Source: an uncultured Gemmatimonadota bacterium (lineage in GTDB: Bacteria; SM23-81). From it: a stretch of 60,371 nt of DNA. The notes beneath the pieces were generated by a model, which had not been told where the DNA came from, searched no databases, and saw only the letters and a list, made by a program, of their open reading frames with translations. The stretch lies in NCBI GenBank assembly GCA_964584035.1, contig CAZOYL010000001.1:1-60371 (forward strand), read 5' to 3'. Shown piece after piece: positions 1-31,882 of the stretch. Position 1 is the first letter of the stretch; each line of letters starts with the position of its first letter. The position numbers and the translations under genes are program-made.

Positions 1-1
1 C

Positions 2-985
2 CGAGGTATGGGCGTGGCCTCGATGTTCTACGGCGTCAGTCTGGGCGCCAAGGGATGGTCTCTGGATGCTGCCGCCGCCCATGCTCAGGTGCACCGGGAT
101 GGTTCGGTCAGCCTGGCCATCGGCTGCACCGAGATGGGCCAGGGCGCGCAGACCGTCATCTCTCAGATGGCGGCCGAGAAGCTGGGGCTGTCCCTCGATC
201 GGATCACCGTGCTGCCGACCGACACCGGTCTGGTGCCGGACAGCGGCCCCACGGTGGCCTCCCGGACGACCGTGTTCAGCGGGAATGCCGTCCTCAACGC
301 GCTGGAGCAGATCGGCGGGAACCTGGCGGAGGTCGCTGCCGGGATGCTCGGGTGCCGGAGGGATGCGATCTCCTTTAGGGACGGACAGGTTCACGGCGGC
401 AAGGCCTCCGTGCCGTTTGAGGAGGTCATCGAGCAGTGTTATCTGCGCAACGTCAACCTGGCGGCCGAGGGATGGTACGTATCGCCGCCCTGCAGTTTCG
501 ACGATCGCACCGGACAAGGGGATGCCTATTACGTATATGGATACGGCACGCAGGTGGCAGAGGTGGAGGTCGATCTGGAGACCGGCGCGGTCCGGGTCCT
601 GGAGATCACGGCGGCACATGATGTGGGCCGGGCCATTAATCCACAGGGTGTCCGCGGACAGATCGAGGGTGGGGTGGTGCAGGGCCTGGGATACGGCCTG
701 ATGGAGGATTTTGTGGTCACCGGCGGCCGGATCATGACCCCTGACCTGGCCACCTATATCATTCCCACCTCTCAGGATGTTCCCCACATCCACAGCATCA
801 TCGTCGAGGCGGCCTCTCAAGATGGCCCCTATGGCGCCAAGGGCCTCGGCGAGCAGCCGATCATTCCCACGGCTGCCGCCATCGCCAATGCCATCGCCCA
901 TGCCACCGGGATCCGCATGAGGACTTTGCCCATAGGCCCGGAAGCGCTGCACCGGGCCATGATCCGGGAGGATGAAAAGACGTGA
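2..985 (+). CDS. Xanthine dehydrogenase/aldehyde oxidase-family molybdopterin-binding large subunit, C-terminal part (5' end outside window)
   Basis: The ORF is open to the window edge. The C-terminal stretch GAKGLGEQPIIPTAAAIANAIAHATG is typical of Mo-hydroxylase large subunits. Its stop overlaps the next start (GTGA at 982). Confidence 0.85.
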   Translation, partial: RGMGVASMFYGVSLGAKGWSLDAAAAHAQVHRDGSVSLAIGCTEMGQGAQTVISQMAAEKLGLSLDRITVLPTDTGLVPDSGPTVASRTTVFSGNAVLNALEQIGGNLAEVAAGMLGCRRDAISFRDGQVHGGKASVPFEEVIEQCYLRNVNLAAEGWYVSPPCSFDDRTGQGDAYYVYGYGTQVAEVEVDLETGAVRVLEITAAHDVGRAINPQGVRGQIEGGVVQGLGYGLMEDFVVTGGRIMTPDLATYIIPTSQDVPHIHSIIVEAASQDGPYGAKGLGEQPIIPTAAAIANAIAHATGIRMRTLPIGPEALHRAMIREDEKT

Positions 986-2328
986 ACAAACAAACCGTTC
1001 AGCATTCACGATATCTCGAGGAGGTGGAGCCGGCCTATCGTCCCCACCAGGCCCGTCTGGAGGCGTCCCGTTGCCTGTTCTGCCACGACGCTCCCTGCGC
1101 CCGGGCCTGCCCGGCCGAAATCGATGTGGCCGGTTTCATCCGCAGGCTGAAGGAGGGGAACATCGCCGGCGCGGCCCAGCTGATCTATGAGGCAAACGTT
1201 CTGGGCGGCTCCTGCGGCCGGGTCTGCCCGGTGGAGATACTCTGTCAGGAGGCCTGCAGCCACACGGAACTCTCGGAACCGATCAAGATCGGCAGGCTGC
1301 AGGCGTATGCCTGGCAGCACGGTTACGAGCTCCTCGATGTTCACCTTCCGGGCGAAACATCCCTGGGGAAAGTGGCGGTGGTGGGGGCGGGACCATCGGG
1401 TCTGGCGGCGGCTGCAGAGCTGGCCAGGTTGGGTTATGAGGTCAAGATCTTCGAGAGCCGTGACCGGGCCGGAGGGGTGCTCAGTTCCGGCATACCGGCC
1501 TATCGGCTGCCCGATACGGTGCTGTCAGGAGAGGTTCGCCTGATCCGCCGTCTGGGCGTCGAGTTCGTCTGGGAGCGAAAGGCCGGTCAGGACCTCTCCC
1601 TGGCCGAACTCCGATCCGCCGGTTTCGAGGCCGTTTTTCTGGGGCCGGGACTGGGCCGGAGCGCCCGGGTGGGGCTTCCGGGAGAGGATCTGAAGGGTGT
1701 TTTCTGGGCTGCTGATCTGCTCGACAGGATCAGGAACTATCCCCGTGAGCGGGAGGCGCTGATCGGACAGCTGGGGTGCCGGACGGTCATCATCGGCGGG
1801 GGCAATGTGGCCATCGATGTGGCCTGCTCCCTGCTTCGCCTGGGAATGGAGAAGGTGTCTCTGATCTGTCTGGAGGGTCCCGGGGAAATGCCCGCCTTTC
1901 CCTCCGAGGTTCGCTTTGCCCTGGATGAGGGCGTCGAGCTGCATACCCGCTGCCGGCCCCTGCAGATTTTAGGCGACGACGCTGGCCGCGTCATTGGACT
2001 GGAAGGTGTCGGCATCGAATGGGAAAAGCCGGACTGTTACCTTCCCGATAATGCCATCTCCCTTCCGGGAACGGAATTCAGGCTCCAGGCCGACAGCGTC
2101 GTGGAAGCCATCGGCCGGCGGCCGGAGAAAGCCGTCCTGGAAGATCTGCAGTTAGAGCCTTCGTCGGAAGGCCTGATCGGCGTTGATCAAGCGACCGGGC
2201 AGACCTCCCAGCCGTGGATTTTTTCCGCCGGGGATGTGGTCAATGGCGGGGCCACTGTCGTCGAAGCGGTGGCCGGCGGCAAGAGGGCGGCACGCAGCAT
2301 TCATCGTTATCTTCATCAAGGAAAATAA
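982..2328 (+). CDS. preT: NAD-dependent dihydropyrimidine dehydrogenase subunit PreT-like (GltD-like FAD/NAD oxidoreductase with N-terminal Fe-S Cys motifs)
   Basis: EASRCLFCHDAPCARACP and GRVCPVEILCQEAC Cys clusters, then the GKVAVVGAGPSGLAAA dinucleotide fold. It is collinear with E. coli PreT as I recall it. GTG start overlaps the upstream stop. Confidence 0.8.
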   Translation: MNKQTVQHSRYLEEVEPAYRPHQARLEASRCLFCHDAPCARACPAEIDVAGFIRRLKEGNIAGAAQLIYEANVLGGSCGRVCPVEILCQEACSHTELSEPIKIGRLQAYAWQHGYELLDVHLPGETSLGKVAVVGAGPSGLAAAAELARLGYEVKIFESRDRAGGVLSSGIPAYRLPDTVLSGEVRLIRRLGVEFVWERKAGQDLSLAELRSAGFEAVFLGPGLGRSARVGLPGEDLKGVFWAADLLDRIRNYPREREALIGQLGCRTVIIGGGNVAIDVACSLLRLGMEKVSLICLEGPGEMPAFPSEVRFALDEGVELHTRCRPLQILGDDAGRVIGLEGVGIEWEKPDCYLPDNAISLPGTEFRLQADSVVEAIGRRPEKAVLEDLQLEPSSEGLIGVDQATGQTSQPWIFSAGDVVNGGATVVEAVAGGKRAARSIHRYLHQGK

Positions 2329-2365
2329 TCAACGCGTCATTTGGCGCCGGCAAAGGATGCCATCC

Positions 2366-3619
2366 ATGTCTCAAACCGTTGATCTCGGTGTGGATTTCTG
2401 TGGGGTTCATTTCGACAGTCCCTTTTTACTGGCTGCCTCTCCCTGTACCGACGACCAGGAGATGATCGCCAGAGCCTTCCAGGCTGGCTGGGCCGGAGCG
2501 GTCTTGAAAACCACCTCCGTGGAGGGGACCCCGGTGGATCTGGTCTATCCGATGATCGTCGGATTGGACCACGAGGAGAAAAGAGCCTTCGGCCTGGGGA
2601 ATATCGATCTCATCTCGCATCATCATATCGACCTGATCGAGGAGCGGATACAGTTCCTGAAGAATGAATATCCCCAAAAGGTGGTTGCCGCCAGTATGAT
2701 GGCTGCCACCAGGGAGGATTGGGTGGGGGTCGCCCGGCGCTTGAGCCAGGCCGGGGCCGATATCATCGAGTGCAGTTTTTCCTGTCCCCAGGGAACTCTG
2801 GGTTCCAAGCCGGGTTTCATGCTCGGTCAGGATCCGCGGTTGGCCGGCGAGGTGACCGCCTGGGTGAAAGAGGGTGCCGGTGACACGCCGGTGGTGATCA
2901 AGATCACCCCCCAGGTGGCCGATGTCGTGGAGATCGCTCGGGCGGTCAAAGAGGGCGGTGCCGACGGGGTCTGCGCCTCCAATACCATACCGTCCCTGAT
3001 GGGCATCGATCTGGAAAGCTTCGTGCCGTATCCTCAGGTGGATGGCCAAACCACTTACAGCGGTCTGTCCGGTCCGGCCATCAAACCGATCACGTTGCGG
3101 GTCATCGCCGAGATCGCCCGACACGTCGACATCCCCATCACTGGAACCGGCGGTGCCTCCGACTGGCGGGATGCGGCCGAATTCATGCTGGTCGGCGCCC
3201 GGACCGTACAGTTTTGCACGGCCCCGATGCATTACGGGTATCGCATCATCGAGCATCTCAAGGACGGTCTCGAGCGATATCTGCGATCCAAGGGAATGCA
3301 GGCGCCCGCTGAGCTGGTCGGCCGATCGCTGCCGCATATCGTCAGTCATGAAGACCTCTCCCGGGCCAGGAAGATGATCAGCCGAATCGATTCGCAATTG
3401 TGTATTAAGGACGATCTATGCTATCTGGCCTGCCGGGACGGCGGGCATCAGGCCATCGAGCTGGGCGAGGATCGGATTCCCATCATGGATGACGAAAAAT
3501 GCGTCGGCTGCGGGCTGTGCCTGGCCGTCTGTCCGGTGCCCGGCTGTCTGCATCTGGAGGAAGCTTCCGGCGAGAACAAACCGACGAAAGGAACGCCGGC
3601 GAAAGGAATATCGGCATGA
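2366..3619 (+). CDS. preA: Dihydropyrimidine dehydrogenase subunit PreA-like (DHOD-like TIM barrel plus C-terminal 2x[4Fe-4S] ferredoxin)
   Basis: The N-terminus MSQTVDLGVDFCGVHFDSPFLLAASP, IECSFSCPQ and the C-terminal CVGCGLCLAVCP match PreA. AAGGA lies 8 nt upstream of ATG 2366 (ATG 2357 is an alternative). The ORF-track start 2183 is only a 5' extension overlapping preT. Confidence 0.8.
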   Translation: MSQTVDLGVDFCGVHFDSPFLLAASPCTDDQEMIARAFQAGWAGAVLKTTSVEGTPVDLVYPMIVGLDHEEKRAFGLGNIDLISHHHIDLIEERIQFLKNEYPQKVVAASMMAATREDWVGVARRLSQAGADIIECSFSCPQGTLGSKPGFMLGQDPRLAGEVTAWVKEGAGDTPVVIKITPQVADVVEIARAVKEGGADGVCASNTIPSLMGIDLESFVPYPQVDGQTTYSGLSGPAIKPITLRVIAEIARHVDIPITGTGGASDWRDAAEFMLVGARTVQFCTAPMHYGYRIIEHLKDGLERYLRSKGMQAPAELVGRSLPHIVSHEDLSRARKMISRIDSQLCIKDDLCYLACRDGGHQAIELGEDRIPIMDDEKCVGCGLCLAVCPVPGCLHLEEASGENKPTKGTPAKGISA

Positions 3620-4971
3620 CTCTGAAAGATAACGATAGAGAGAAGGAACTGCTGATCAGCGGCGATTATGTGGTCACCCTCAATCCATCCGGAGAGATCA
3701 TTCCCCGGGGAGCCGTCCTCATCCGCGACGGTCTGATCGCCGATACGGGCCCGGCCGAGCGCCTTCGACAGTCTTACCCGCAGGCGCAGACGATGGACAC
3801 CGGGGGCCTGATCATGCCCGGCCTGATCTGTGCCCACATGCACCTCTACAGCACCATGGCCCGGGGAATGGCCCTGAAGGATGAGGCCCCGGCCAATTTC
3901 GTTCAGATTCTGGAACGTCTCTGGTGGCGGCTGGATCGAGCCCTGCTGGAGGAGGACATTCGCTACAGCGCTCTGGTCGCTCTGATCTCCTGTATTCGGC
4001 ATGGCACCACCACCGTCATCGATCATCACGCCAGCCCGGGGCACATCGCCGGCAGCCTGGACATCCTATCCGAGGCGGTCCGGCAGGCCGGCCTGCGGGC
4101 TTCGTTATGCTATGAGGTCTCGGACCGGGGCGGTGACCGGGAATCCGAATCGGGTATCGAGGAAAACGTTCGATTCTTACGTAGATGTCAGAGTGGGAGG
4201 GACCCTCTTCTGGCGGCCAGCTTTGGCCTGCATGCCTCTTTCACCCTGTCGGATGAGACCCTGAAACGATGCGTCCGAATGGGCCGGGAGCTCAATTCGG
4301 GATTTCATATCCACGTGGCCGAGGACGCCGCCGACGTGCGTGACGCCCGGGAGAAGTACGGAAAAAGCACGGTCCAACGTCTGGCCGATCTCGGCGTTCT
4401 GGGCCCCAGAACCCTGGCCATTCACTGCGTTCATGTCGACCAAGACGACATCGAGGTGCTTCGGGAGACCAAGACCAAGGTGGTGCACAATCCGCAGTCC
4501 AATTGTAACAACGGGGTGGGCGTGGCCCCGGTGCTGGAGATGATGGCCCGCGGTATTCCTGTGGGATTGGGGTCGGACGGGTTCACCACCAACATGTTCG
4601 ACGAGATCAGAATGGCCAACGTGCTGCATAAACTGGCCCGGCGGGATCCCCGGGTGGCCTATGCCGAGGTTCCCCGGATGGTCTTCGAGAACAATCGTCA
4701 CATCGCCGGCCTGTTTTTCGACCAGCCCCTGGGCATCATCGAGCCCGGCGCCGCCGCCGACATCATTGTCCTGGACTATGATCCGGCCACGCCGCTGAAT
4801 GCCGGCTCCTTCTGGGGGCATACGCTCTTCGGTCTGTCAGGAGCCCCGGTGAAGACCACCCTGGTTGGTGGAAAAGTTCTGATGCACGAGGGGCATCTGC
4901 TGGGCCTGGATGAGGAAAAGATTTACGCTCGCTCACGGCAGTTAGCTGAAAAATTATGGAACAGGTTTTAA
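3616..4971 (+). CDS. ssnA: SsnA-type putative aminohydrolase (amidohydrolase superfamily)
   Basis: ILERLWWRLDRAL...TTVIDHHASPGHIAGSL is near-identical in pattern to E. coli SsnA. There is an ATGA overlap with the preA stop. Confidence 0.85.
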   Translation: MTLKDNDREKELLISGDYVVTLNPSGEIIPRGAVLIRDGLIADTGPAERLRQSYPQAQTMDTGGLIMPGLICAHMHLYSTMARGMALKDEAPANFVQILERLWWRLDRALLEEDIRYSALVALISCIRHGTTTVIDHHASPGHIAGSLDILSEAVRQAGLRASLCYEVSDRGGDRESESGIEENVRFLRRCQSGRDPLLAASFGLHASFTLSDETLKRCVRMGRELNSGFHIHVAEDAADVRDAREKYGKSTVQRLADLGVLGPRTLAIHCVHVDQDDIEVLRETKTKVVHNPQSNCNNGVGVAPVLEMMARGIPVGLGSDGFTTNMFDEIRMANVLHKLARRDPRVAYAEVPRMVFENNRHIAGLFFDQPLGIIEPGAAADIIVLDYDPATPLNAGSFWGHTLFGLSGAPVKTTLVGGKVLMHEGHLLGLDEEKIYARSRQLAEKLWNRF

Positions 4972-4986
4972 GGAAAGGAGTGTTTC

Positions 4987-6033: not shown

Positions 6034-6060
6034 TTCATATCAAACAGGAGGGACCAGCGG

Positions 6061-7104: not shown

Positions 7105-7113
7105 AGGAGAGAG

Positions 7114-8133: not shown

Positions 8134-8136
8134 GCC

Positions 8137-9078: not shown

Positions 9079-9145
9079 TCCCGATCATCGAGTCCTCAGG
9101 AAAAATGTTTTCAGGCGAACTGTTTTCGGACGGAGTCAGCGCCCC

Positions 9146-10414
9146 ATGGATACTGGTCGAAAAGATCCTGATCGAACAGACCATATACGGGGTCTGCAGT
9201 GCATGATCTGCGGTCAGCTGTACGGGTCCCGGGAGGTGACCTATACCTGTCCCGGATGTGGTCCCGGGGGCATCCTGGATGTGATCTACGACTACGACTC
9301 CATCGCCGGCCGATTGACCCGGGAGCGGCTGGCCGGCCGCCGGGAACGCTCTATCTGGCGCTATACGGAGCTGCTGCCGGTCGATCCCGAAGGTCCTCGT
9401 CCGCCCCTGCAGGTGGGTTGGACGCCGCTGTATCATGCGGCCGAGTTGGGCCGGTCATTGGGCTGCCCGAACCTGTATATCAAGGACGATGGACGCAATG
9501 CCACCGCCTCCTTCAAGGACCGGGCCAGCGCGGTGGGGGTGGTCAAAGCCCTGGAACAGGGCAGCGGCACCATCGCCTGTGCCTCCACCGGCAATGCCGC
9601 CTCCTCTCTGGCCGGCCTCGCGGCCAGTGTGGGACTCGATGCCGTCATCTTCGTGCCCCGGACAGCACCCAGGGCCAAGGTGGCCCAGCTGCTGATCTAT
9701 GGAGCGCGTGTTTTTTTAATCAGGGGCAGTTACGATCAGGCCTTCGACCTCTGCCTGGAGGCCACCGGACGGTTCGGCTGGTACAGCCGCAACACCGCCT
9801 ATAATCCCTATCTCTCCGAAGGGAAAAAAACGGCTGCGATAGAGATCTGTGAACAGCTGGACTGGAAAGCCCCGGATGCGGTCTTCGTCTCGGTGGGAGA
9901 CGGCTGCATCATCGGCGGTCTGTGGAAGGGATTCTACGATCTCCTGCAGCTGGGTTTCATCGATCACATGCCCCGGCTGGTGGGCGTTCAAGCCAGGGGG
10001 TGTCAGCCGATCAAACGGGCCTGGGAGACGGATCGCCCGGTATCGCCGGTCAGCCCGGAGACCCTGGCCGACAGCATCGCGGTGGGCACTCCACGGGATG
10101 CCCTCAAGGCGCTTCGGGCCGTGCGCCAGTCCGGAGGCTTCATGCTGGCCGTCAGCGACGAGGACATCCTGGAAGCCATGAGGCGGCTGGCCCGAGGAAC
10201 CGGCATCTTCGGAGAGCCGGCCGGGGTGACGGGTTTTGCCGGATTGATGCAGGCTCTTTCGGAGAATCGGGTTCGCGGGGATGAGCGAGTGGTCGTGGTC
10301 ATGACGGGCAATGGTCTCAAGGATATCGAGGGAGCCCTGCGGGCCACACCGTCGCCGGTGGAGATCGATCCCACCCTGGATGCTGTGTCAGAGTGCCTGG
10401 AGGGAACAGGATGA
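9146..10414 (+). CDS. Threonine-synthase-family fold-type-II PLP enzyme with N-terminal CxxC...CxxC zinc ribbon
   Basis: CMICGQ...CPGCG ribbon, SFKDRAS PLP-lysine motif and ASTGNAA. Function in this context is unknown. Confidence 0.7.
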   Translation: MDTGRKDPDRTDHIRGLQCMICGQLYGSREVTYTCPGCGPGGILDVIYDYDSIAGRLTRERLAGRRERSIWRYTELLPVDPEGPRPPLQVGWTPLYHAAELGRSLGCPNLYIKDDGRNATASFKDRASAVGVVKALEQGSGTIACASTGNAASSLAGLAASVGLDAVIFVPRTAPRAKVAQLLIYGARVFLIRGSYDQAFDLCLEATGRFGWYSRNTAYNPYLSEGKKTAAIEICEQLDWKAPDAVFVSVGDGCIIGGLWKGFYDLLQLGFIDHMPRLVGVQARGCQPIKRAWETDRPVSPVSPETLADSIAVGTPRDALKALRAVRQSGGFMLAVSDEDILEAMRRLARGTGIFGEPAGVTGFAGLMQALSENRVRGDERVVVVMTGNGLKDIEGALRATPSPVEIDPTLDAVSECLEGTG

Positions 10415-10917
10415 AAGAATCGACCGGCCTGGTGGAGATACGGCTGACCATCAATGGGGCCAAACGGCGCCTGCAGGTGCCTCCGGAGACGACGCTTCTG
10501 GAATTGATCCGCGATCATCTGGGGCTGACCGGAACGAAGGAGGGCTGCGGTCAGGGCCAATGCGGAACCTGCACCGTCCTGCTGGAAGGCCGGCCGGTCA
10601 ACTCCTGCCTGGTGCTGGCAGCTCAGGCCGATGGGCAGCAGGTGACCACCATCGAGGGCCTGATTCGGAAGGGGCAGCTGGATGCCGTCCAGAGCGCCTT
10701 CATCGATGAGGGCGCCGTCCAGTGCGGATTCTGCACGCCGGGCCTGATCCTCACCGCCCGAGCTCTGCTGGATGAGAATCCGGATCCCAGCGAGGAGCAG
10801 ATCCGGGAGGCCATCTCCGGCCACCTGTGCCGCTGCACCGGGTATGCCGCCATCGTGCGAGCTATCCGCCGGGCGGCTTCAGAGACATCGGCCGGGAAAG
10901 AGAACCCTTCATCATAA
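10411..10917 (+). CDS. (2Fe-2S)-binding small subunit of a Mo-hydroxylase (CoxS/XdhC-type)
   Basis: GCGQGQCGTCTV and CGFCTPG...CRCTGY cluster motifs. There is an ATGA overlap with the upstream stop. Confidence 0.85.
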   Translation: MKESTGLVEIRLTINGAKRRLQVPPETTLLELIRDHLGLTGTKEGCGQGQCGTCTVLLEGRPVNSCLVLAAQADGQQVTTIEGLIRKGQLDAVQSAFIDEGAVQCGFCTPGLILTARALLDENPDPSEEQIREAISGHLCRCTGYAAIVRAIRRAASETSAGKENPSS

Positions 10918-10927
10918 GGAGGTGATC

Positions 10928-12232
10928 ATGTCCGATGGCCCCTTTCGATTGAAGCAGTATCACAGCACCGTGCGTCAGGAGATCCTGGGTGGCGTGACCA
11001 CCTTTATCACCATGGCCTATATCATCATCGTCAACCCGGCCATTCTGGAGGCGGCCGGCATTCCCCGGGGACCCTCCATGGTGGCGACTATTCTGGCCGC
11101 CGCCTTCGGAACGCTGATCATGGGGCTCTATGCCAACCGGCCGTTCGCCATCGCGCCCTACATGGGAGAGAATGCCTTCATCGCCTTCACCGTGGTGAAG
11201 GTCATGGGCTACAGCTGGCAGACCGCCCTGGGCGCTATCTTCATCGGGGGCATCCTGTTCACCGTGCTGACCGTGCTGCGACTGCGATCCTGGCTGGCCA
11301 ACTCCATTCCCCAGGGATTGAAGTTCAGCTTTGCCGCCGGCATCGGGCTGTTCCTGACCTTCATCGGTCTGAACGAGACCGGATTGGTGGTCCTGGGTTC
11401 CCCCGGGGCGCCGGTCAGACTGGGGCAGATGACCAGTCTGCCGGTGCTGCTGTCGGTGTTCTGTTTTCTTCTCATGGGGGTTCTGCTGATCTGGAAGGTT
11501 CGCGGAGCGCTGCTGTTGAGCATCCTGGTCGCCACCCTGCTGGCCATCATTCTGAAGATCGTGCCGGCTCCGGAGCGGATCGTCAGCCTGCCGCCCAGCC
11601 TGGGTCCTATCTTTCTGAAGCTGGATATTCTGGGAGCTCTCACCTGGGGATTCTTCGCCGTCATCCTGACCGTCTTCGTGATGGATTTCGTCGATACGAT
11701 GGGTACGCTGATCGGCGTCTCGGCCCGAGCCGGGCTGCTCGACGAGAACGGCAATCTACCCCAAATCGAGAAGCCCATGCTGGCCGACTCGCTGGCCACG
11801 GTCGTGGGCGCTCTGCTGGGCACTACCACCACCGGCACCTATATCGAGTCGGCCGCCGGCATTGAGGCTGGTGCCCGCACCGGCCTGTCGGCGGTGGTCA
11901 CCGCCATCATGTTCCTGCTGGCTCTGTTCCTGGCCCCCGTGGTCACCGCCGTGCCGCCTCTGGCCTATGGTCCGGCCCTCATCGTGGTGGGCCTGTTCAT
12001 GCTCAGCCCCATTGCCCGCATTAAATTCGATGATTACACCGAGTTGATCCCGGCCTTCATGACGGTCGTGCTGATGAGCTTTACCTATAATATCGGCGTG
12101 GGCATGACGGCAGGATTTGTTCTCTATCCGTTCTTCAAACTTATGGCCGGCCGCTCCCGTGAGGTGCATCCCGGCATGTGGGTTCTGGGGGCGCTGTCGC
12201 TGTTGTTTTATATCTTCTACCCATATGGTTGA
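10928..12232 (+). CDS. AzgA/NCS2-family purine (adenine/guanine/hypoxanthine) permease
   Basis: The N-terminus FRLKQYHSTVRQEILGGVTTFITMAYIIIVNP and a polytopic hydrophobic profile. AAGGAGG lies upstream of ATG 10928. Confidence 0.8.
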   Translation: MSDGPFRLKQYHSTVRQEILGGVTTFITMAYIIIVNPAILEAAGIPRGPSMVATILAAAFGTLIMGLYANRPFAIAPYMGENAFIAFTVVKVMGYSWQTALGAIFIGGILFTVLTVLRLRSWLANSIPQGLKFSFAAGIGLFLTFIGLNETGLVVLGSPGAPVRLGQMTSLPVLLSVFCFLLMGVLLIWKVRGALLLSILVATLLAIILKIVPAPERIVSLPPSLGPIFLKLDILGALTWGFFAVILTVFVMDFVDTMGTLIGVSARAGLLDENGNLPQIEKPMLADSLATVVGALLGTTTTGTYIESAAGIEAGARTGLSAVVTAIMFLLALFLAPVVTAVPPLAYGPALIVVGLFMLSPIARIKFDDYTELIPAFMTVVLMSFTYNIGVGMTAGFVLYPFFKLMAGRSREVHPGMWVLGALSLLFYIFYPYG

Positions 12233-12803
12233 GAGAATCTCGGCGATCGTACTGGCGGCCGGGGCGTCGCGCCGGATGGGGCGGCCCAAGCCGCTGGTCT
12301 CTTTAGGCGGGAGGACCATCCTGCAGCGCACCCTGGATCATCTGCGGACCTCCCGGGTGGACGAGATCGTGGTGGTTTTAGGACACCGGGCCGAGGATAT
12401 CCTGCCCACCCTGCGGGGACTGGAATGCCGGGTGGTGATCAACCGCCGGCACGCCCTGGGGATGAGCAGTTCCATTCGCAGAGGTCTCCAGGCCGTTCAT
12501 CCGCGGTCGCGGGCCGTCCTGCTGACCCTGGGGGATCAGCCGTACATCGGCTCCCGAGTCATCGACCGGCTGGTGGAGGTTTCTCACCGTGACAAGCGTT
12601 CCATCGTCGTGCCCACCTTTCAGGGCCGCAGGGGCCACCCGGTTCTCTTCCGCCGGGAGATCTGGCCGCGGTTGCAGGCCCTCACGGGGGATGTCGGGGG
12701 GAAAGAGCTGCTGCGCCGGTATCCTGAAGATGTCTGTGAGGTCGAGGTCGATGACCGGGGCGTTCTGATGGACATCGATCGTCCCGAGGATACCGGCCGA
12801 TGA
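12225..12803 (+). CDS. mocA: Molybdenum cofactor cytidylyltransferase (MocA/YgfJ-like)
   Basis: AIVLAAGASRRMGRPKPL nucleotidyltransferase motif. It overlaps the permease stop by 8 nt. Confidence 0.75.
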   Translation: MVERISAIVLAAGASRRMGRPKPLVSLGGRTILQRTLDHLRTSRVDEIVVVLGHRAEDILPTLRGLECRVVINRRHALGMSSSIRRGLQAVHPRSRAVLLTLGDQPYIGSRVIDRLVEVSHRDKRSIVVPTFQGRRGHPVLFRREIWPRLQALTGDVGGKELLRRYPEDVCEVEVDDRGVLMDIDRPEDTGR

Positions 12804-12881
12804 CCATCATCCGGCCGTTGCGGACCGGAGCCGTTTATAACCGCTCCTGACTCCAGAGATGGTCTGGTGGGAGAAGTCGAC

Positions 12882-13757
12882 ATGCTGGATCGATTTAAAT
12901 ATCATCGGCCGGACAACCTGGAGGAAGCTCTCCGGATTTTACAGCAGGACGGGCAACGGGCCAAGATCATGGCCGGGGGGACCGATCTGCTGGTCCGCAT
13001 GAAGGAAGGGACCATCCGGCCGGAGATCGTCCTGGATATCTCAGGGCTGGCCGAGTTGCACGGCATCCAGCGCCGGGAGGAATGGATCTGGATCGGACCG
13101 CTGGCCACGCATCGGGAGGTTTCCGAGTCGAACCTGATTCGATCACATGGCCAGGCCCTGGCGCAGGGCTCCTCGCGCGTGGGATCTCCCCAGATCCGCC
13201 ATCGCGCCACCATCGGAGGAAATATGGCCAATGCCTCGCCGGCCGCTGACACCGTGCCGCCGCTGTTTGTTCTCCAGACCGAGGTGGCGATCTCATCGAT
13301 GAAGGGCAGCCGCTGGCTCCCGGTGGACGATTTCTTCACGGGCCCCGGTGAGACCGTTCTGAGGCCGGATGAGCTGGTCACGGGATTGAGGTTTCCGGTG
13401 CCGTCCGACGACAAGCGGAGCCTGTCCCGTTACGAAAAGTTCGGCACCCGCAACGCCCTGTCGGTGGCGGTGGCCTCTGCGGCCGTGGCGGCGGATATGG
13501 AGCCGGACGGAAAACTGACCCGGGTGCGAATCGCCCTGGGGTCGGTCAGCCCGGTGGTGCTGCGAGCCCGGGAGGCCGAGCAGCTGCTGACCGGACAGGT
13601 GCCCGGGGAGGAGCTTATCGCCCGGGCGGCGCGGGCGGCAGCGAAGCAGTGCTGCCCGATCGATGACGTCCGCGGCTCGGCCTGGTACCGCCGGCGACTG
13701 GTGCAGGCATTGTTGGCCCGTATCCTGAGGGCTTGGATGATAGGGAGTCGCTCGTGA
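12882..13757 (+). CDS. FAD-binding medium subunit of a Mo-hydroxylase (CoxM/XdhB/YgfM-type)
   Basis: F.YHRPDNLEEAL...IMAGGTDLL and ATIGGN motifs. Confidence 0.8.
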   Translation: MLDRFKYHRPDNLEEALRILQQDGQRAKIMAGGTDLLVRMKEGTIRPEIVLDISGLAELHGIQRREEWIWIGPLATHREVSESNLIRSHGQALAQGSSRVGSPQIRHRATIGGNMANASPAADTVPPLFVLQTEVAISSMKGSRWLPVDDFFTGPGETVLRPDELVTGLRFPVPSDDKRSLSRYEKFGTRNALSVAVASAAVAADMEPDGKLTRVRIALGSVSPVVLRAREAEQLLTGQVPGEELIARAARAAAKQCCPIDDVRGSAWYRRRLVQALLARILRAWMIGSRS

Positions 13758-14245
13758 GAACGAAAATTCAAGACGGCAACATTCAAGATGACGTTGTTCA
13801 AGGTGACGTCGGTAAAAATGACATTGGTAAAAATGGCGTTGTCAAAAAAGACGTCTGGAGAGATGACGGCATGTGTTTCGTCTGCGGGCCGAAAAATCCC
13901 ATCGGCCTCAAACTCCGTTTCACCCTGACGGCCGATCGAGCCCTGGAGACCATCTTCAACCCTCAAAAGGTTCACCAGGGATACGCCGATGTGGTTCACG
14001 GGGGCATCATGGCTACCATCCTGGACGAGGTCATGGTGAACCTGCCCAATCAACTGGGGCAGAAAGCCGTCACCGCCCGCATGACCGTATCTCTGAAGCG
14101 GCCGGCCATGGTGGGGCAGCCGTTGTCTTTCCGGGCCCGGATCATCGGTGAGACCCGCCGCACCATAGAGGCCGCGGCCACGGCCCGGCGGGCTGACGGT
14201 ACGCTGGTGGCCGAGGCCAGCGGAACGCTGATGAAAATCCCCTGA
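13754..14245 (+). CDS. PaaI-family hotdog thioesterase; the start is ambiguous (GTG 13754 including a repeat-encoded N-terminus, or ATG 13871)
   Basis: CFVCGPKNPIGLKL...HGGIMATILDE is typical of PaaI/YbgC-like proteins. GTGA overlaps the upstream stop and GGGAG lies upstream. Confidence 0.65.
   Translation: MRTKIQDGNIQDDVVQGDVGKNDIGKNGVVKKDVWRDDGMCFVCGPKNPIGLKLRFTLTADRALETIFNPQKVHQGYADVVHGGIMATILDEVMVNLPNQLGQKAVTARMTVSLKRPAMVGQPLSFRARIIGETRRTIEAAATARRADGTLVAEASGTLMKIP
13766..13870 (+). repeat. Seven tandem degenerate 15-bp units, low GC
   Basis: The units are attcaagacggcaac, attcaagatgacgtt, gttcaaggtgacgtc, ggtaaaaatgacatt, ggtaaaaatggcgtt, gtcaaaaaagacgtc and tggagagatgacggc. The array ends exactly at ATG 13871. 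Confidence 0.85.
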
Positions 14246-14293
14246 TGAAAGAGAGATGCCCGCGGACCGTCCATTCCATCAAGGAGCCCTTTT

Positions 14294-14644
14294 ATGGTTA
14301 CGGTGAAAAAGGTTGCAGAAGTGCCCGGCAGCGAGGTTCGCCTTTCGGGTGTGCAGGGCGTCCGCATCAGACGGCTCATCGGAGCTCCGGACCAGGCACC
14401 GACCTTTGCCATGCGGCTGTTCGAGGTGGAGCCGGGCGGTTTCACCCCCCTGCATACCCATGCTCACGAGCATGAGGTCTTCATTCTCAGCGGCCGAGGT
14501 GTCGTCAGGGGTCCCTGGGGGGAGAAGCCGCTGGTGCCCGAGACGGCCGTCTATGTTCCGCCTCAGGTGAAGCACCACTTCCTCAACGCGGGCGATGAGC
14601 CTTTCCGTTTCCTGTGCCTGGTCCCTCTGGCGGCCGACGGCTGA
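14294..14644 (+). CDS. Cupin-domain protein
   Basis: The GGFTPLHTHAHEHEVFILSG cupin motif 1 pattern. Confidence 0.7.
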   Translation: MVTVKKVAEVPGSEVRLSGVQGVRIRRLIGAPDQAPTFAMRLFEVEPGGFTPLHTHAHEHEVFILSGRGVVRGPWGEKPLVPETAVYVPPQVKHHFLNAGDEPFRFLCLVPLAADG

Positions 14645-14748
14645 GGATGAACGGACCGGAGAAAAGTGTTGATTTTTTCGAGTTGACACCATTACTTTGA
14701 TTAAATGGGTCGCGAAAGATACTCTTTCGCCCTGTGTGAGGAAGGCAG

Positions 14749-16026: not shown

Positions 16027-16132
16027 AGATCCCAGCGGTGTCCGGACCAACGGGAGGAGACCTGTCCGTGGGAGCCGGACGTTCAGAGACTTCCATGTCG
16101 TCAGGGGAGAACCCTGAAACAGGAACGATGCG

Positions 16133-20936: not shown

Positions 20937-20992
20937 CCGCTGGCCCGCGGGTTCCGCGTTGTTTCTCCCATCTCGCCGGATCTGTTTTCCTC

Positions 20993-24472: not shown

Positions 24473-24509
24473 GCGGCCGGAGAGGGAATATGACCGCCGG
24501 AGATCCGAC

Positions 24510-26348: not shown

Positions 26349-26388
26349 TGCTGCGTCTTTCATTTGTTTTTCCAAGCAGGAGGACGTC

Positions 26389-27594: not shown

Positions 27595-27668
27595 TGACCA
27601 CGGCCAGAGCCGGGCTGGTATGATCCCGGGAAGATGATCCCTAAAAACCGGTGCGGGTAAGAACGACT

Positions 27669-29237: not shown

Positions 29238-29297
29238 TTGCATTACCTTGGGAGAATGGATATTTTAAGTTTTCCACTCAACCTGGGGAAGAGCAGC

Positions 29298-30902: not shown

Positions 30903-30932
30903 GGTTTTTTAGGCGCCGGAAGGAAAGGTCTC

Positions 30933-31859: not shown

Positions 31860-31882
31860 AGCTAGAGCTGGACAGGGGCTCT

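What the first reader, a model, noticed from the sequence alone, without database searches (positions are those of the whole stretch)
1..14644. Non-canonical ygeW/ssnA/xdhD-type purine (N-heterocycle) fermentation supercluster
Fifteen co-directional, mostly overlapping or tightly spaced genes are present. They include recognisable counterparts of the E. coli ygeW, yqeA (carbamate kinase), mocA/ygfJ, ssnA, ygfM (FAD subunit), xdhD (Mo subunit) and ghxQ (purine permease) genes. That region has been linked to anaerobic purine/urate use in enterobacteria and gut anaerobes. Several expected partners are absent from this stretch: ygeX (diaminopropionate ammonia-lyase), ygeY (peptidase), hyuA (hydantoinase) and ygfK. 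In their place are PreT/PreA, a second carbamoyltransferase, a CysK-like and a ThrC-like PLP enzyme, a thioesterase and a cupin. The three Mo-hydroxylase subunit genes are dispersed (Mo at 2-985, 2Fe-2S at 10411, FAD at 12882) instead of contiguous. The enzyme logic fits an ATP-yielding reductive degradation of a purine-derived ring whose steps are not established: ring reduction, amidohydrolytic opening, phosphorolytic release of carbamoyl phosphate, carbamate kinase, and PLP handling of an amino-acid product.
Basis: partly seen in the sequence, partly recalled or inferred. Interest (0 to 1): 0.75.

Follow-up and report, generated by a model that had tools for sequence, protein, structure and literature searches.

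The report
Variant anaerobic uric-acid breakdown operon
This is a 5'-cut operon for the recently solved oxygen-free (2,8-dioxopurine) route of uric-acid/purine breakdown, in an undescribed version that carries two carbamoyltransferases and a threonine-synthase-like enzyme where a peptidase and a lyase normally sit, so it may yield two ATP per purine ring instead of one.

Summary
The 15 co-directional genes exist at the stated coordinates with the stated protein families. The cluster is syntenic in at least 6 related metagenome contigs (64-99% aa identity), and its core recurs in a Candidatus Eisenbacteria MAG.

It is a variant of the reductive urate pathway solved in 2025: urate -> 2,8-dioxopurine -> reduction -> SsnA -> HyuA -> 2,3-diureidopropionate -> YgeW/YqeA -> YgeY -> YgeX -> pyruvate.

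- **hyuA:** its absence is a contig-end artefact. In every relative a D-hydantoinase gene sits directly upstream of the Mo-subunit gene, which is truncated here.
- **ygfK:** PreT/PreA replacing it is a known type of substitution.
- **ygeY and ygeX:** they are absent from the whole 60 kb contig. They are also absent from the clusters of relatives, whose 5' boundary I could see.
- **Replacements:** an ancient pair of AOTCase-like (not YgeW-type) carbamoyltransferases plus carbamate kinase, and a ThrC-like PLP enzyme. All 125 family members checked lack threonine synthase's conserved Arg160.

I infer that both ureido groups are cleaved phosphorolytically (up to 2 ATP) and that the ThrC-like enzyme replaces the diaminopropionate lyase.

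The specificity of the Mo enzyme and the roles of the CysK-like, thioesterase and cupin genes remain open. Verdict: new variant of a known kind, moderate interest.

The parts
2..985 (+). C-terminal third (327 aa) of the molybdopterin subunit of an XDH-family Mo hydroxylase, truncated by the contig end
   Evidence: PF20256 MoCoBD_2, 294 bits. Full-length orthologs of 761-766 aa occur in L013/L014. It is 82% identical to L009. Best PDB hit is nicotinate DH NdhM 3hrd_B at 228 bits, then 1rm6 and 1jro. The catalytic Glu in 'GLGEQP' is present.
982..2328 (+). PreT-like FAD/NAD(P)H plus 4Fe-4S electron-transfer subunit; homologous to the central part of YgfK
   Evidence: PF14691 Fer4_20 plus PF07992. 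It is 31% identical to YgfK residues 431-847 and 32% to YgfT. Its start overlaps the Mo gene stop by 4 nt.
2357..3619 (+). PreA-like FMN/4Fe-4S dihydropyrimidine-dehydrogenase-type reductase; proposed 2,8-dioxopurine reductase, a UacX analogue
   Evidence: NF006183 PreA, 449 bits against a cutoff of 335, plus PF01180 and Fer4_21. Start refined. It is 85-86% identical in relatives.
3616..4971 (+). SsnA amidohydrolase, the ring-opening marker enzyme of the reductive urate pathway
   Evidence: NF005540, 579 bits (cutoff 444), and TIGR03314, 554 bits (cutoff 455). It is 36% identical to E. coli SsnA. The ATG at 3616 overlaps the PreA stop.
4987..6033 (+). CysK-like fold-type II PLP enzyme, role unassigned
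   Evidence: TIGR01136 cysKM, 353.9 bits (cutoff 344). The cysK equivalog scores 345.2, below its cutoff of 350.95. Best PDB hits are cysteine synthases at about 280 bits; the Asn loop reads STGNA rather than TSGNT. It is 87-94% identical in relatives and 74% in L002, but absent from the L037 cluster.
6061..7104 (+). Carbamoyltransferase CT1 (AOTCase-like)
   Evidence: NF003384 AOTCase, 289.1 bits (cutoff 288); YgeW models score 168-176 against cutoffs of 453-500. PDB: AOTCase 3m5c at 209 bits, YgeW 3q98 at 152 bits. Motifs SLRTR, HPCQ and HCLP are present. Orthologs: 76% in L037, 73% in L002.
7114..8133 (+). Carbamoyltransferase CT2, a paralog 40% identical to CT1
   Evidence: AOTCase model, 255.5 bits (below cutoff); YgeW models, 109-118 bits. 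PDB: AOTCase at 211 bits, YgeW at 112 bits. Motifs SVRTR, HPCQ and HPMP are present. An ortholog is 76% identical in L037. Homologs of 69-75% identity occur across many phyla.
8137..9078 (+). Carbamate kinase (ATP from carbamoyl phosphate)
   Evidence: TIGR00746 arcC, 366 bits (cutoff 358), and NF009007, 384 bits. It is 49% identical to E. coli YqeA.
9146..10414 (+). ThrC-like fold-type II PLP enzyme with an N-terminal Zn-ribbon; proposed replacement for the YgeX diaminopropionate ammonia-lyase
   Evidence: PRK08197, 308.5 bits (cutoff 303). Closest PDB entries are threonine synthases, 2zsj at 238 bits. The Arg conserved in all five solved threonine synthases (T. thermophilus R160) is Leu here. 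It is Leu or Met in 124 of the 125 family members checked; the motif was not found in the other one. The gene lies next to SsnA or the carbamoyltransferases in L002, L006, L036 and L037.
10411..10917 (+). 2x[2Fe-2S] small subunit of the Mo hydroxylase
   Evidence: PF01799 plus PF00111. XdhC_XDHase scores 194 bits; 47% identical to E. coli XdhC. The ATG at 10411 has a GGAGGG ribosome-binding site.
10928..12232 (+). AzgA/GhxQ-type purine permease
   Evidence: PF00860, 139 bits. It is 36% identical to E. coli GhxQ over 436 aa, with no hit to UacT or XanQ. The start at 10928 has an AAGGAGG ribosome-binding site.
12225..12803 (+). MocA-type molybdenum cofactor cytidylyltransferase
   Evidence: TIGR03310, 180 bits (cutoff 186), and PF12804, 157 bits.
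12882..13757 (+). FAD subunit of the Mo hydroxylase (XdhB-like rather than YgfM-like)
   Evidence: PF00941 plus PF03450. XdhB_XDHase scores 234 bits; the YgfM-type model TIGR03312 scores 67 bits. It is 29% identical to E. coli XdhB.
13754..14245 (+). Hotdog-fold thioesterase, role unassigned
   Evidence: PF03061 4HBT; only weak PDB matches. Conserved in L013/L014 but not in L037.
14294..14644 (+). Small cupin, role unassigned
   Evidence: PF07883. Closest solved structure is the Mn-cupin TM1459, of unknown function, at 77 bits. Conserved in L013/L014.

Best explanation
The stretch is the 3' fifteen-sixteenths of a 16-gene catabolic operon from an uncultured diderm bacterium. The first gene, a D-hydantoinase (hyuA), lies just beyond the contig end. 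The operon encodes a variant of the reductive (2,8-dioxopurine / 'yanthine') uric-acid/purine degradation pathway.

Proposed flow. Step 8 rests on a curated family match, steps 4 and 5 on curated family matches plus published biochemistry, step 6 on a curated family match to the gene seen only in relatives, and steps 1-3, 7, 9 and 10 on inference.
1. A purine base is imported by the AzgA/GhxQ-type permease.
2. The three-subunit Mo hydroxylase supplies 2,8-dioxopurine by 6-dehydroxylating urate, and/or oxidises hypoxanthine and xanthine to urate. It comprises the Mo, 2Fe-2S and FAD subunits, with the cytidylylated cofactor made by MocA.
3. I cannot fix this enzyme's specificity from sequence.
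4. PreT/PreA, a split NAD(P)H-dependent analogue of YgfK/UacX, reduces the C5=C6-type double bond.
5. SsnA opens the pyrimidine ring to give ureidomethylhydantoin.
6. HyuA opens the hydantoin to give 2,3-diureidopropionate.
7. CT1 and CT2, an old paralog pair of AOTCase-like carbamoyltransferases, each phosphorolyse one of the two ureido groups. CT2 thereby takes the place of the hydrolytic peptidase YgeY.
8. Carbamate kinase converts the carbamoyl phosphate into ATP, up to 2 ATP per ring.
9. The ThrC-like PLP enzyme lacks the conserved Arg160 of real threonine synthases. It deaminates 2,3-diaminopropionate to pyruvate plus 2 NH3 in place of YgeX.
10. The CysK-like enzyme, thioesterase and cupin are lineage-specific accessories without an assigned step.
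For: **Family assignments.** SsnA, PreA and carbamate kinase pass curated NCBIfam cutoffs.

**Published pathway and known variants.** The pathway chemistry and the YgfK->PF01180 (UacX) and YgeW->UacY substitutions are described in 10.1101/2025.05.19.654654. YgeW plus YqeA ATP formation is shown in 10.1101/2025.04.24.650524.

**Conservation.**
- The order hyuA-Mo-PreT-PreA-SsnA-CysK-CT1-CT2-CK-ThrC-FeS-perm-MocA-FAD-thioesterase-cupin is assembled from two sets of relatives. L009, L015-L020 and L023 cover the hyuA end. L013 and L014 cover the 3' end.
- The hydantoinase passes TIGR02033 (483 bits, cutoff 393).
- Upstream of hyuA there are only divergent regulators and unrelated genes. None of these loci has a ygeX or ygeY hit.

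**Independent recurrence.** The Candidatus Eisenbacteria locus L037 carries Mo-FAD-FeS-PreA-HyuA-SsnA-CT1-CT2-CK-ThrC-like. Its CT1 and CT2 orthologs are each 76% identical to the window's, while CT1 and CT2 are only 40% identical to each other.

**Substitution pattern.** L006 has YgeY plus a single carbamoyltransferase plus the ThrC-like gene, and no YgeX. This fits CT2 standing in for YgeY and the ThrC-like enzyme standing in for YgeX.

**Catalytic motifs.** Both carbamoyltransferases keep SxRTR, HPxQ and HxxP.

**ThrC-like enzyme.** R160 is replaced by Leu or Met in 124 of the 125 family members checked (the motif was not found in the remaining one). All five solved threonine synthases have Arg there. 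Eleven contig lengths are shared between the top-120 ThrC-like and top-120 CT2 hit lists, which implies wide co-localisation.

**Mo subunit.** The ortholog keeps the purine-type residues equivalent to R. capsulatus E232, R310 and E730.
Against: - No biochemical data exist for any protein of this variant.
- Neither carbamoyltransferase is a YgeW ortholog, so their substrates are inferred from context only.
- CT-CT2-CK also occurs alone in an Elusimicrobiota MAG (L038). CT-CT-ThrC-like occurs without SsnA in a Chloroflexi MAG (L036). The module may therefore act on other ureido compounds.
- The Mo subunit lacks the EcXdhD-specific insertion carrying E606. It has the classical XDH Glu/Arg pair that EcXdhD lacks. 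At the two positions highlighted for DOPDH it has Tyr (F1009 position) and apparently Val (A1078 position, numbering from memory) rather than Val and Thr/Ser. It could therefore be an ordinary xanthine dehydrogenase, with the urate 6-reductase encoded elsewhere.
- ygeY, ygeX, yqeB, yqeC and selD could lie elsewhere in the genome. I saw only 60 kb here plus about 10 kb upstream in relatives.
- The CysK-like protein passes the cysteine-synthase subfamily cutoff and may simply be a cysteine synthase.
- SsnA homologs of 45-51% identity also occur outside purine contexts (L001 and L003).
Confidence: 0.62

Rival explanations
1. The pathway is the same, but CT1 and CT2 are not two sequential enzymes. 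They form one hetero-oligomeric carbamoyltransferase, or one of them is regulatory. In that case only one ureido group is phosphorolysed (1 ATP), and the second is hydrolysed by an enzyme encoded elsewhere, such as a YgeY or a UacY/D-aminoacylase-type hydrolase.
For: CT1 and CT2 are always adjacent, 9-75 nt apart, wherever both occur (window, L013, L014, L016, L023, L037). OTCase-family active sites lie at subunit interfaces (established knowledge). The same contig carries an Amidohydro_3 protein at 27651-29237, the Pfam family of UacY.
Against: Both paralogs keep all carbamoyl-phosphate motifs. Each is conserved at 76% across phyla. L006 manages with one carbamoyltransferase but then carries YgeY. 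The Amidohydro_3 gene sits in a D-peptide utilisation context (M55 D-aminopeptidase, peptide ABC transporter), 13 kb away from the cluster.
Confidence: 0.15
2. The cluster degrades pyrimidines, or another N-heterocycle, rather than urate. PreT/PreA reduce uracil or thymine, the dihydropyrimidinase (hyuA) opens the ring, and a carbamoyltransferase plus carbamate kinase replace beta-ureidopropionase. The Mo hydroxylase and SsnA serve a side branch or a different substrate.
For: PreA passes the NAD-dependent dihydropyrimidine dehydrogenase equivalog (449 bits, cutoff 335). The upstream gene in relatives passes the dihydropyrimidinase equivalog TIGR02033. HyuA-PreT-PreA triplets of the classical Pyd type exist in L021 and L026.
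Against: SsnA passes its equivalog cutoffs. It is flanked by the PreA-like gene and by the carbamoyltransferase genes or genes adjoining them in three distant lineages (window, L037, L006). The operon includes a Mo hydroxylase with purine-type active-site residues and a purine permease. Two carbamoyltransferases and a C3-amino-acid-type PLP enzyme are unnecessary for uracil. C. difficile uses a PydA homolog (UacX) for exactly the purine step.
Confidence: 0.1
3. The thrC-like and cysK-like genes are ordinary amino-acid biosynthesis genes (threonine synthase, cysteine synthase). They are merely embedded in the operon, and diaminopropionate is handled by a YgeX encoded elsewhere.
For: Both are annotated that way by public sources. 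The ThrC-like protein just passes PRK08197 (308.5 bits, cutoff 303), and the CysK-like protein passes cysKM. The closest PDB relatives are true threonine and cysteine synthases.
Against: The ThrC-like family universally lacks R160 and has GDGCI in place of GNAGN. It sits beside SsnA or the carbamoyltransferases in five independent lineages, including a CT-CT-ThrC-like unit in Chloroflexi. For the CysK-like gene the rival is weaker but not excluded. That gene is missing from L037 and its Asn loop is altered.
Confidence: 0.1

Closest known systems
E. coli ygeW-ygeX-ygeY-hyuA-yqeA / ygfK-ssnA-ygfM-xdhD reductive uric acid degradation cluster (Li et al. 2025, PMC12507026; Liu et al. 2025, 10.1101/2025.04.24.650524)
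   Same: Both have SsnA (36% identical, equivalog cutoff passed), carbamate kinase (49% identical to YqeA), an XDH-family Mo hydroxylase with an FAD subunit, MocA, a GhxQ-type permease and a hydantoinase (seen in relatives). Both use carbamoyltransferase plus carbamate kinase logic for making ATP.
   Different: There is no YgfK; split PreT plus PreA take its place. There is no YgeY, YgeX, YqeB or YqeC. The carbamoyltransferases are AOTCase-like, come as a pair, and are not YgeW orthologs. The Mo and FAD subunits are XdhA/XdhB- and NDH-like, and lack the XdhD insertion with E606. Extra CysK-like, ThrC-like, thioesterase and cupin genes are present.
Clostridioides difficile / C. sporogenes uricolytic clusters (UacX, UacY, XdhAC = DOPDH)
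   Same: A PF01180 (PydA/PreA-type) reductase is used instead of YgfK. The Mo subunit's C-terminal part is closest to nicotinate dehydrogenase, the family that DOPDH is reported to be nearest to.
   Different: The window has a PreT partner, which implies NAD(P)H rather than ferredoxin as reductant. It has an FAD subunit, which DOPDH lacks. It uses phosphorolytic carbamoyltransferases rather than the hydrolytic UacY, and it has no YgeY or YgeX.
Reductive pyrimidine catabolism (PreT/PreA or PydA, dihydropyrimidinase PydB, beta-ureidopropionase PydC)
   Same: PreA and the upstream hydantoinase pass the corresponding NCBIfam equivalogs. The chemistry is the same: reduce the C5=C6 bond, then open the N3-C4 amide.
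   Different: The cluster also has a Mo hydroxylase, SsnA, a purine permease, two carbamoyltransferases and carbamate kinase. It has no beta-ureidopropionase.
N-acetylornithine carbamoyltransferase (AOTCase, Xanthomonas; PDB 3KZC and related entries), and catabolic OTCase/PTCase plus carbamate kinase modules of the arginine and agmatine deiminase pathways
   Same: AOTCase is the closest solved relative of both CT1 and CT2 (about 210 bits). The motifs SxRTR, HPCQ, HC(L)P and K/R-S/N-W are shared. Pairing with carbamate kinase for substrate-level phosphorylation is also shared.
   Different: The context is purine catabolism, not arginine metabolism. Two diverged paralogs sit in tandem. CT2 is below the AOTCase cutoff and has HPMP instead of HCLP.
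Threonine synthase (ThrC; PDB 2ZSJ, 1UIM, 2D1F, 6CGQ, 1E5X)
   Same: Fold-type II PLP enzyme with the SFKDR lysine motif and an STGN loop. It scores 238 bits against A. aeolicus ThrC and is annotated as threonine synthase in public databases.
   Different: Arg160 is replaced by Leu or Met in 124 of the 125 family members checked. The GNAGN loop is replaced by GDGCI. An N-terminal Zn-ribbon is present. The gene lies next to carbamoyltransferases or SsnA rather than hom/thrB.

Membership tests
Reductive uric acid / 2,8-dioxopurine pathway gene cluster | SsnA-family amidohydrolase (the marker enzyme) | tested here: met
   NF005540 scores 579 bits (cutoff 444) and TIGR03314 scores 554 bits (cutoff 455). 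It is 36% identical to EcSsnA.
Reductive uric acid / 2,8-dioxopurine pathway gene cluster | 2,8-dioxopurine reductase (YgfK, or the PF01180 UacX type) adjacent to ssnA | tested here: met
   A PF01180 plus Fer4_21 PreA-like gene lies directly upstream of ssnA with a 4-nt overlap. PreT is 31% identical to the central part of YgfK. Substrate specificity was not tested.
Reductive uric acid / 2,8-dioxopurine pathway gene cluster | Mo hydroxylase acting as urate 6-reductase (XdhD-YgfM / DOPDH) | tested here: inconclusive
   All three subunits of an XDH-family enzyme are present. The E606 insertion of EcXdhD is absent, and the classical XDH Glu/Arg residues are present. The F1009 position is Tyr, not the Val reported for DOPDH. 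Known DOPDHs are themselves only about 25% identical to each other, so no sequence criterion is available.
Reductive uric acid / 2,8-dioxopurine pathway gene cluster | HyuA hydantoinase | tested here: inconclusive
   It is not in the window, because the contig ends inside the Mo gene. It is present directly upstream of the Mo gene in L009, L015-L020 and L023, and passes TIGR02033 (483 bits, cutoff 393).
Reductive uric acid / 2,8-dioxopurine pathway gene cluster | YgeY peptidase and YgeX diaminopropionate ammonia-lyase | tested here: not met
   There is no YgeY hit in the 60 kb, and YgeX gives only a weak hit (E = 7e-7) on the ThrC-like gene. Neither appears in the clusters or the 10-kb upstream flanks of L016, L023 and L037. 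The rest of the genome was not visible.
Reductive uric acid / 2,8-dioxopurine pathway gene cluster | Se-cofactor trait genes yqeB/yqeC and selD, present in all gut strains that carry the cluster | tested here: inconclusive
   No yqeB or yqeC is found in the 60 kb. selD was not searched for specifically. The whole genome is not available.
YgeW knotted carbamoyltransferase (TIGR03316 / NF005538) | Score above the curated equivalog cutoff | tested here: not met
   CT1 scores 168 and 176 bits, CT2 109 and 118 bits, against cutoffs of 500 and 453. PDB entry 3q98 scores 152 and 112 bits, against about 210 bits for AOTCase.
Aspartate/ornithine carbamoyltransferase superfamily (catalytically competent) | Carbamoyl-phosphate motifs SxRTR and HPxQ, and the HxLP-type motif | tested here: met
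   CT1 has SLRTR, HPCQ and HCLP. CT2 has SVRTR, HPCQ and HPMP (alignments).
Threonine synthase | Conserved Arg (T. thermophilus R160) in NPxR[IL]EGQKT. Its phosphate-binding role is from memory of the Omi et al. 2003 structure paper. | tested here: not met
   The window has NPYLSEGKKT. All five solved ThrCs have Arg at this position. 124 of 125 homologs have Leu or Met; the motif was not found in the other one.
Cysteine synthase CysK | Equivalog score and the TSGNT substrate loop | tested here: inconclusive
   The cysKM subfamily cutoff is passed (353.9 bits, cutoff 344). The cysK equivalog is narrowly failed (345.2 bits, cutoff 350.95). The loop reads STGNA.
Purine-type xanthine dehydrogenase active site | Residues equivalent to R. 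capsulatus E232, R310 and E730 (bovine E802, R880, E1261) | tested here: met
   All three are conserved in the 82%-identical full-length ortholog L009. E730 is also visible in the window fragment as GLGEQP. E232 and R310 lie in the part missing from the window.

The most novel reading that the evidence does not exclude
A fully phosphorolytic branch of anaerobic purine degradation exists, independent of YgeY and YgeX. Two dedicated AOTCase-like carbamoyltransferases release both ureido groups of 2,3-diureidopropionate as carbamoyl phosphate. This doubles the substrate-level ATP yield to 2 per purine. A large family mis-annotated as 'threonine synthase', with signature NPY[LM]SEGKKT and a Zn-ribbon, is really a new 2,3-diaminopropionate (or ureido-alanine) lyase. 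The CT1-CT2-CK(-ThrC-like) unit is a portable module. It is spread through many uncultured anaerobic phyla (Eisenbacteria, Elusimicrobiota, Chloroflexota, Cloacimonadota, Caldiserica and others). There it also scavenges free ureido compounds.
Probability: 0.4. Interest if true: 0.65.

Novelty: new variant of a known kind. Interest (0 to 1): 0.52.

Why it matters
The reductive urate pathway was worked out only in 2025, and only for E. coli and clostridia. Which ureido group the carbamoyltransferase attacks is still disputed, and the pathway's energy yield matters for the ecology of purine-degrading anaerobes and for engineered uricolytic probiotics.

A natural version with two specialised carbamoyltransferases would supply a separate enzyme for each ureido group. 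It would also suggest a way to double ATP conservation.

This version extends the pathway beyond gut Bacillota and Proteobacteria to uncultured sediment-type diderm phyla.

It also flags a family of at least about 125 close homologs in public data (125 sequences checked here), those that carry a source name being labelled 'threonine synthase', whose conserved active-site change and genomic context point to a different function. Published neighbourhood surveys counted any PF00185 protein as YgeW and any PF00291 protein as YgeX, so they would have overlooked this variant.

Tried and rejected
- **Exact-sequence look-ups.** Look-ups of window proteins (PreT, CysK-like, CT2/P0241) to recover the source record or upstream DNA found nothing on record. 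The source assembly and taxon therefore remain unidentified.
- **Mo-subunit homologs at about 50% identity.** Their contexts (L010-L012) are unrelated to purine clusters and cost three look-ups.
- **SsnA scan of GTDB genomes.** The best hit is only 51% identical. L001 and L003/L004 carry solitary SsnA-like genes in unrelated contexts. L007 is a distant YgfK-linked SsnA.
- **Promoter and terminator scan of 1-16200.** No intergenic site defines sub-operons. It is uninformative for an organism of unknown promoter type.
- **Rfam scan.** The window, L016, L023 and L037 gave no riboswitch or other RNA family.
- **A split NdhL/NdhM-type Mo subunit.** I rejected this. Close relatives have a single 761-766 aa gene. 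The apparent split in L009 is one in-frame TAG at a Tyr position.
- **The ThrC-like gene as the housekeeping thrC.** I considered this because homologs are 64-67% identical across phyla. I rejected it on the R160 substitution and the conserved neighbourhood.
- **PDB searches for the cupin and thioesterase.** They gave no functional lead.
- **Literature search for Arg160 of threonine synthase.** No open paper was found. The residue's role is from memory; its conservation was tested directly.

Full report
**1. What is in the sequence**

ORF listing and Pfam/NCBIfam scans confirm fifteen + strand genes between 2 and 14644.
- Mo-hydroxylase molybdopterin subunit, C-terminal 327 aa only, 2-985.
- PreT-like Fer4_20/flavoprotein, 982-2328.
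- PreA-like DHO_dh plus 2x[4Fe-4S] protein. NF006183 scores 449 bits (cutoff 335).
- SsnA. NF005540 scores 579 bits (cutoff 444).
- CysK-like PLP enzyme.
- Two OTCase-family carbamoyltransferases, which I call CT1 and CT2.
- Carbamate kinase. TIGR00746 scores 366 bits (cutoff 358).
- ThrC-like PLP enzyme.
- 2Fe-2S subunit.
- Xan_ur_permease-family transporter, 36% identical to E. coli GhxQ.
- MocA.
- FAD subunit.
- Hotdog thioesterase.
- Cupin.

I refined start codons by comparison with orthologs and ribosome-binding sites. With those starts, intergenic distances run from -8 to +78 nt. purD follows at +104 nt and starts a run of unrelated genes: an M23 peptidase, galT, glgA and ldcA.

Nearly every long ORF of the contig is on the + strand. 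Co-directionality is therefore not informative by itself.

The window is a whole NCBI contig of 60,371 bp. CT2 matches a database protein at 100% identity whose longest contig has exactly that length.

**2. Comparison with E. coli b2866-b2888**

I ran tblastn of all 22 E. coli proteins of that region against the whole window.

| E. coli protein | Identity to window gene | Note |
|---|---|---|
| SsnA | 36% | |
| YqeA | 49% | |
| GhxQ | 36% | |
| XdhC | 47% | |
| XdhB | 29% | YgfM gives no hit |
| XdhA / XdhD | 31% / 29% | to the Mo fragment |
| MocA | 25% | |
| YgeW | 32% / 29% | to CT1 / CT2 |
| YgfK (centre), YgfT | 31%, 32% | to PreT |

There are no hits for HyuA, YgeY, YqeB or YqeC. YgeX gives only a weak hit, on the ThrC-like gene.

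**3. What the literature now says**

1. Urate is reduced to 2,8-dioxopurine by XdhD-YgfM (E. coli) or XdhAC/DOPDH (C. sporogenes).
2. 2,8-dioxopurine is dearomatised by YgfK, or in C. difficile by the PydA homolog UacX (PF01180).
3. SsnA opens the ring to ureidomethylhydantoin.
4. HyuA gives 2,3-diureidopropionate.
5. YgeW plus phosphate releases carbamoyl phosphate, and YqeA makes ATP. In C. difficile UacY hydrolyses instead.
6. YgeY removes the other ureido group.
7. YgeX converts 2,3-diaminopropionate to pyruvate.

Described variants concern the reductant (YgfK, UacX or an F420 enzyme) and YgeW versus UacY. The published neighbourhood survey scored YgeW as any PF00185 protein and YgeX as any PF00291 protein.

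Neither paper, nor the Percudani commentary, mentions threonine-synthase-like or cysteine-synthase-like genes, or paired carbamoyltransferases. Which ureido group YgeW attacks is still disputed.

**4. Relatives and the missing 5' end**

The closest relative, L009, is 72-99% identical at the protein level. It shows a D-hydantoinase gene immediately upstream of a full-length Mo-subunit gene, followed by the same gene order. The hydantoinase passes TIGR02033 (483 bits, cutoff 393).

Two long contigs reproduce the whole order from the Mo gene to the cupin, and on into purD-M23-galT-glgA-ldcA. They are L013 (257 kb) and L014 (945 kb).

A metagenome scan with the L009 hydantoinase recovered L015-L020 and L023. 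In each of them hyuA directly precedes the Mo gene.

In L016 and L023 the 10 kb upstream of hyuA holds a divergently transcribed LuxR-type response regulator and an XRE-type HTH regulator. The L023 copy of the HTH regulator also has a weak cupin domain. Beyond them lie unrelated genes: EPSP synthase, Omp85/PD40 and T9SS-tail proteins.

The operon therefore begins with hyuA. ygeX, ygeY, yqeB and yqeC are truly not part of the cluster.

**5. The conserved non-canonical module**

| Locus | Source | Gene order around the module |
|---|---|---|
| L037 | Candidatus Eisenbacteria MAG | Mo-FAD-FeS-PreA-HyuA-SsnA-CT-CT-CK-ThrC-like |
| L006 | MAG | Mo-FAD/FeS-PreT-PreA-SsnA-ThrC-like-YgeY-CT-HyuA; no YgeX |
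| L002 | MAG | SsnA-ThrC-like-CysK-like-CT1 |
| L036 | Chloroflexi MAG | CT-CT-ThrC-like-PALP; no SsnA |
| L038 | Elusimicrobiota MAG | CT-CT2-CK alone |

- The two carbamoyltransferases of L037 are orthologs of CT1 and CT2 at 76% identity each. CT1 and CT2 are only 40% identical to each other. The pair is thus an old duplication with both copies under constraint.
- In L006 the YgeY passes NF009555 (484 bits, cutoff 321).
- CT2 homologs of 69-75% identity occur in Caldiserica, Cloacimonadota, Neomarinimicrobiota, Elusimicrobiota, Anaerolineae and others.
- Eleven exact contig lengths are shared between the top-120 ThrC-like and top-120 CT2 hit lists. This implies that the two genes lie on the same contigs far beyond the loci I could open.

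The pattern across these loci fits two substitutions:
- Two carbamoyltransferases and no YgeY, or one carbamoyltransferase plus YgeY. This fits CT2 replacing YgeY.
- The ThrC-like gene wherever YgeX is missing. This fits the ThrC-like enzyme replacing YgeX.

**6. Nature of the individual enzymes**

*Carbamoyltransferases.* CT1 and CT2 are closest to Xanthomonas N-acetylornithine carbamoyltransferase (about 210 bits). They are more distant from YgeW 3Q98 (152 and 112 bits). Both are far below the YgeW NCBIfam cutoffs. Both keep SxRTR and HPCQ. CT1 has HCLP and CT2 has HPMP.

AOTCase acts on an omega-ureido / N-alpha-acylated amino acid. 2,3-Diureidopropionate is a short-chain analogue of that substrate type. 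This last point is my inference.

*ThrC-like protein.* It is closest to true threonine synthases (2ZSJ, 238 bits) and keeps the PLP lysine motif. All five solved threonine synthases have NPxR[I/L]EGQKT; the Arg is R160 in T. thermophilus, and its phosphate-binding role is from my memory of the structural literature. The window protein has NPYLSEGKKT instead. So do its four locus homologs, with Leu at the R160 position in each, and 120 database homologs have Leu or Met there. In all, 124 of the 125 sequences carry Leu or Met, and the motif was not found in the remaining one. In the window protein the GNAGN loop is GDGCI. An N-terminal CxxC...CxxC Zn-ribbon is present. It is therefore very unlikely to be a threonine synthase.

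*CysK-like protein.* It passes the cysKM subfamily cutoff but not the cysK equivalog. Its substrate loop is altered, STGNA instead of TSGNT. It is the most conserved protein of the operon among close relatives (87-94%). It is absent from L037. I cannot assign its role.

*Cupin and thioesterase.* The cupin resembles the Mn-cupin TM1459, of unknown function. The thioesterase is generic.

**7. The Mo hydroxylase**

I used the full-length L009 ortholog for this analysis.
- The best full-length PDB match is R. capsulatus XDH (368 bits).
- E. barkeri nicotinate dehydrogenase NdhL plus NdhM together score higher (342 + 224 bits).
- NdhM is the best hit for the window fragment.
- CO dehydrogenases and aldehyde oxidoreductases score lower.

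The residues equivalent to R. capsulatus E232, R310 and E730 are conserved. E. coli XdhA and XdhD have Gln and no Arg at the first two positions. The XdhD-specific insertion that carries E606, proposed to orient urate, is absent. The position of bovine F1009 is Tyr, as in NDH, rather than the Val reported for DOPDH.

The enzyme is clearly a purine/N-heterocycle hydroxylase. I cannot decide from sequence whether it is the urate 6-reductase, an ordinary xanthine dehydrogenase, or both. Known DOPDHs share only about 25% identity with each other.

In three lineages it is the only Mo enzyme seen in the sequence held, and it sits next to PreA/SsnA. This mildly favours a pathway-entry role. L006 may encode a second Mo enzyme: FAD subunit, MocA and XdhC genes lie on its minus strand.

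The three subunit genes are indeed dispersed in the window lineage, at 2, 10411 and 12882. They are contiguous in L037 and L006.

**8. Conclusion**

The finding is real, and it is a purine/urate fermentation operon. Its broad logic is already known. What appears undescribed is the downstream half: CT1 plus CT2 plus carbamate kinase plus a ThrC-like lyase, instead of YgeW/YqeA plus YgeY plus YgeX.

My best mechanistic reading is sequential phosphorolysis of both ureido groups, followed by PLP-dependent deamination of diaminopropionate. This rests on genomic context and active-site signatures, not on activity data. I hold it at roughly 50-60%. The overall assignment to the reductive urate pathway I hold at about 80%.

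Rivals are a hetero-oligomeric single carbamoyltransferase, a pyrimidine pathway, and embedded housekeeping thrC/cysK genes. They are listed with the tests that would separate them.

**9. Things that led nowhere**

These were the exact look-ups, the contexts of distant Mo homologs, the solitary SsnA loci, the promoter/terminator scan and the Rfam scan. They are listed under Tried and rejected.

Noticed in passing
L009:2771-2773: The Mo-subunit gene of the closest relative carries a single in-frame TAG at a position that is Tyr in homologs, so gene callers split it into 330-aa and 425-aa products. Other relatives have an intact 761-766 aa gene. It is probably a sequencing error or a recent pseudogenisation.
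   Followed up: partly
window 1-60371: The window appears to be an entire NCBI contig. The 100%-identical CT2 protein P0241 is recorded on a contig of exactly 60,371 bp. Nearly all genes are on the + strand and cumulative GC skew rises steadily. TamB and Omp85/BamA-like genes (20546-26348) indicate a diderm organism.
   Followed up: partly
window 26338-34706: A D-amino-acid/peptide utilisation cluster. It contains an aminotransferase, an Amidohydro_3 protein (27651-29237; the same Pfam family as the D-aminoacylase-like UacY of C. difficile), an SBP_bac_5 peptide ABC transporter, a ROK protein and an M55 D-aminopeptidase. It might supply a hydrolytic ureido/acyl-D-amino-acid activity, but it is 13 kb from the purine operon.
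   Followed up: no
window 43266-44309: A glutamate/glycine formiminotransferase gene (FTCD_N plus FTCD). This enzyme type is used in histidine degradation and in the classical clostridial purine fermentation. It stands alone here.
   Followed up: no
window 45247-46371: A sigma-54-dependent activator whose AAA+/HTH part is 38% identical to E. coli YgeV, the regulator next to ygeW. It is 30 kb from the cluster and lacks an obvious link to it.
   Followed up: no
L038:8925-12017: An Elusimicrobiota MAG carries a free-standing CT-CT2-carbamate kinase triplet, without SsnA, a Mo enzyme or the ThrC-like gene. It lies next to nrfH/nrfA-type cytochrome c nitrite reductase genes. This suggests the double-carbamoyltransferase module can work on externally supplied ureido compounds.
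   Followed up: partly
L036:7819-12659: A Chloroflexi MAG has CT(distant)-CT1-like-ThrC-like followed by a 466-aa distant CysK-like PALP protein, with no SsnA within 10 kb. L006 also has a distant 490-aa CysK-like PALP gene near its cluster. A second PLP enzyme may be a recurrent partner of the ThrC-like one.
   Followed up: partly
L002:6068-9876: Two tandem TldD/PmbA-family metallopeptidase genes lie directly upstream of SsnA-ThrC-like-CysK-like-CT1, and a 461-aa protein without any Pfam or NCBIfam match lies downstream. This may be another way of handling the ring or ureido steps.
   Followed up: no
L021:10001-14233 and L026:10001-13943: Dihydropyrimidinase-PreT-PreA triplets, 33-39% identical to the window and L009 proteins, without SsnA or a Mo enzyme. 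These look like classical reductive pyrimidine clusters and show the likely evolutionary source of the hyuA/preTA part.
   Followed up: no
L001 and L003/L004, around 10001-11323: SsnA-family genes 45-51% identical to the window's occur singly. Their neighbours are unrelated genes such as a sodium:solute symporter, SHMT, a PilZ protein and methionine gamma-lyase. SsnA-family membership alone does not guarantee a uricolytic cluster.
   Followed up: partly
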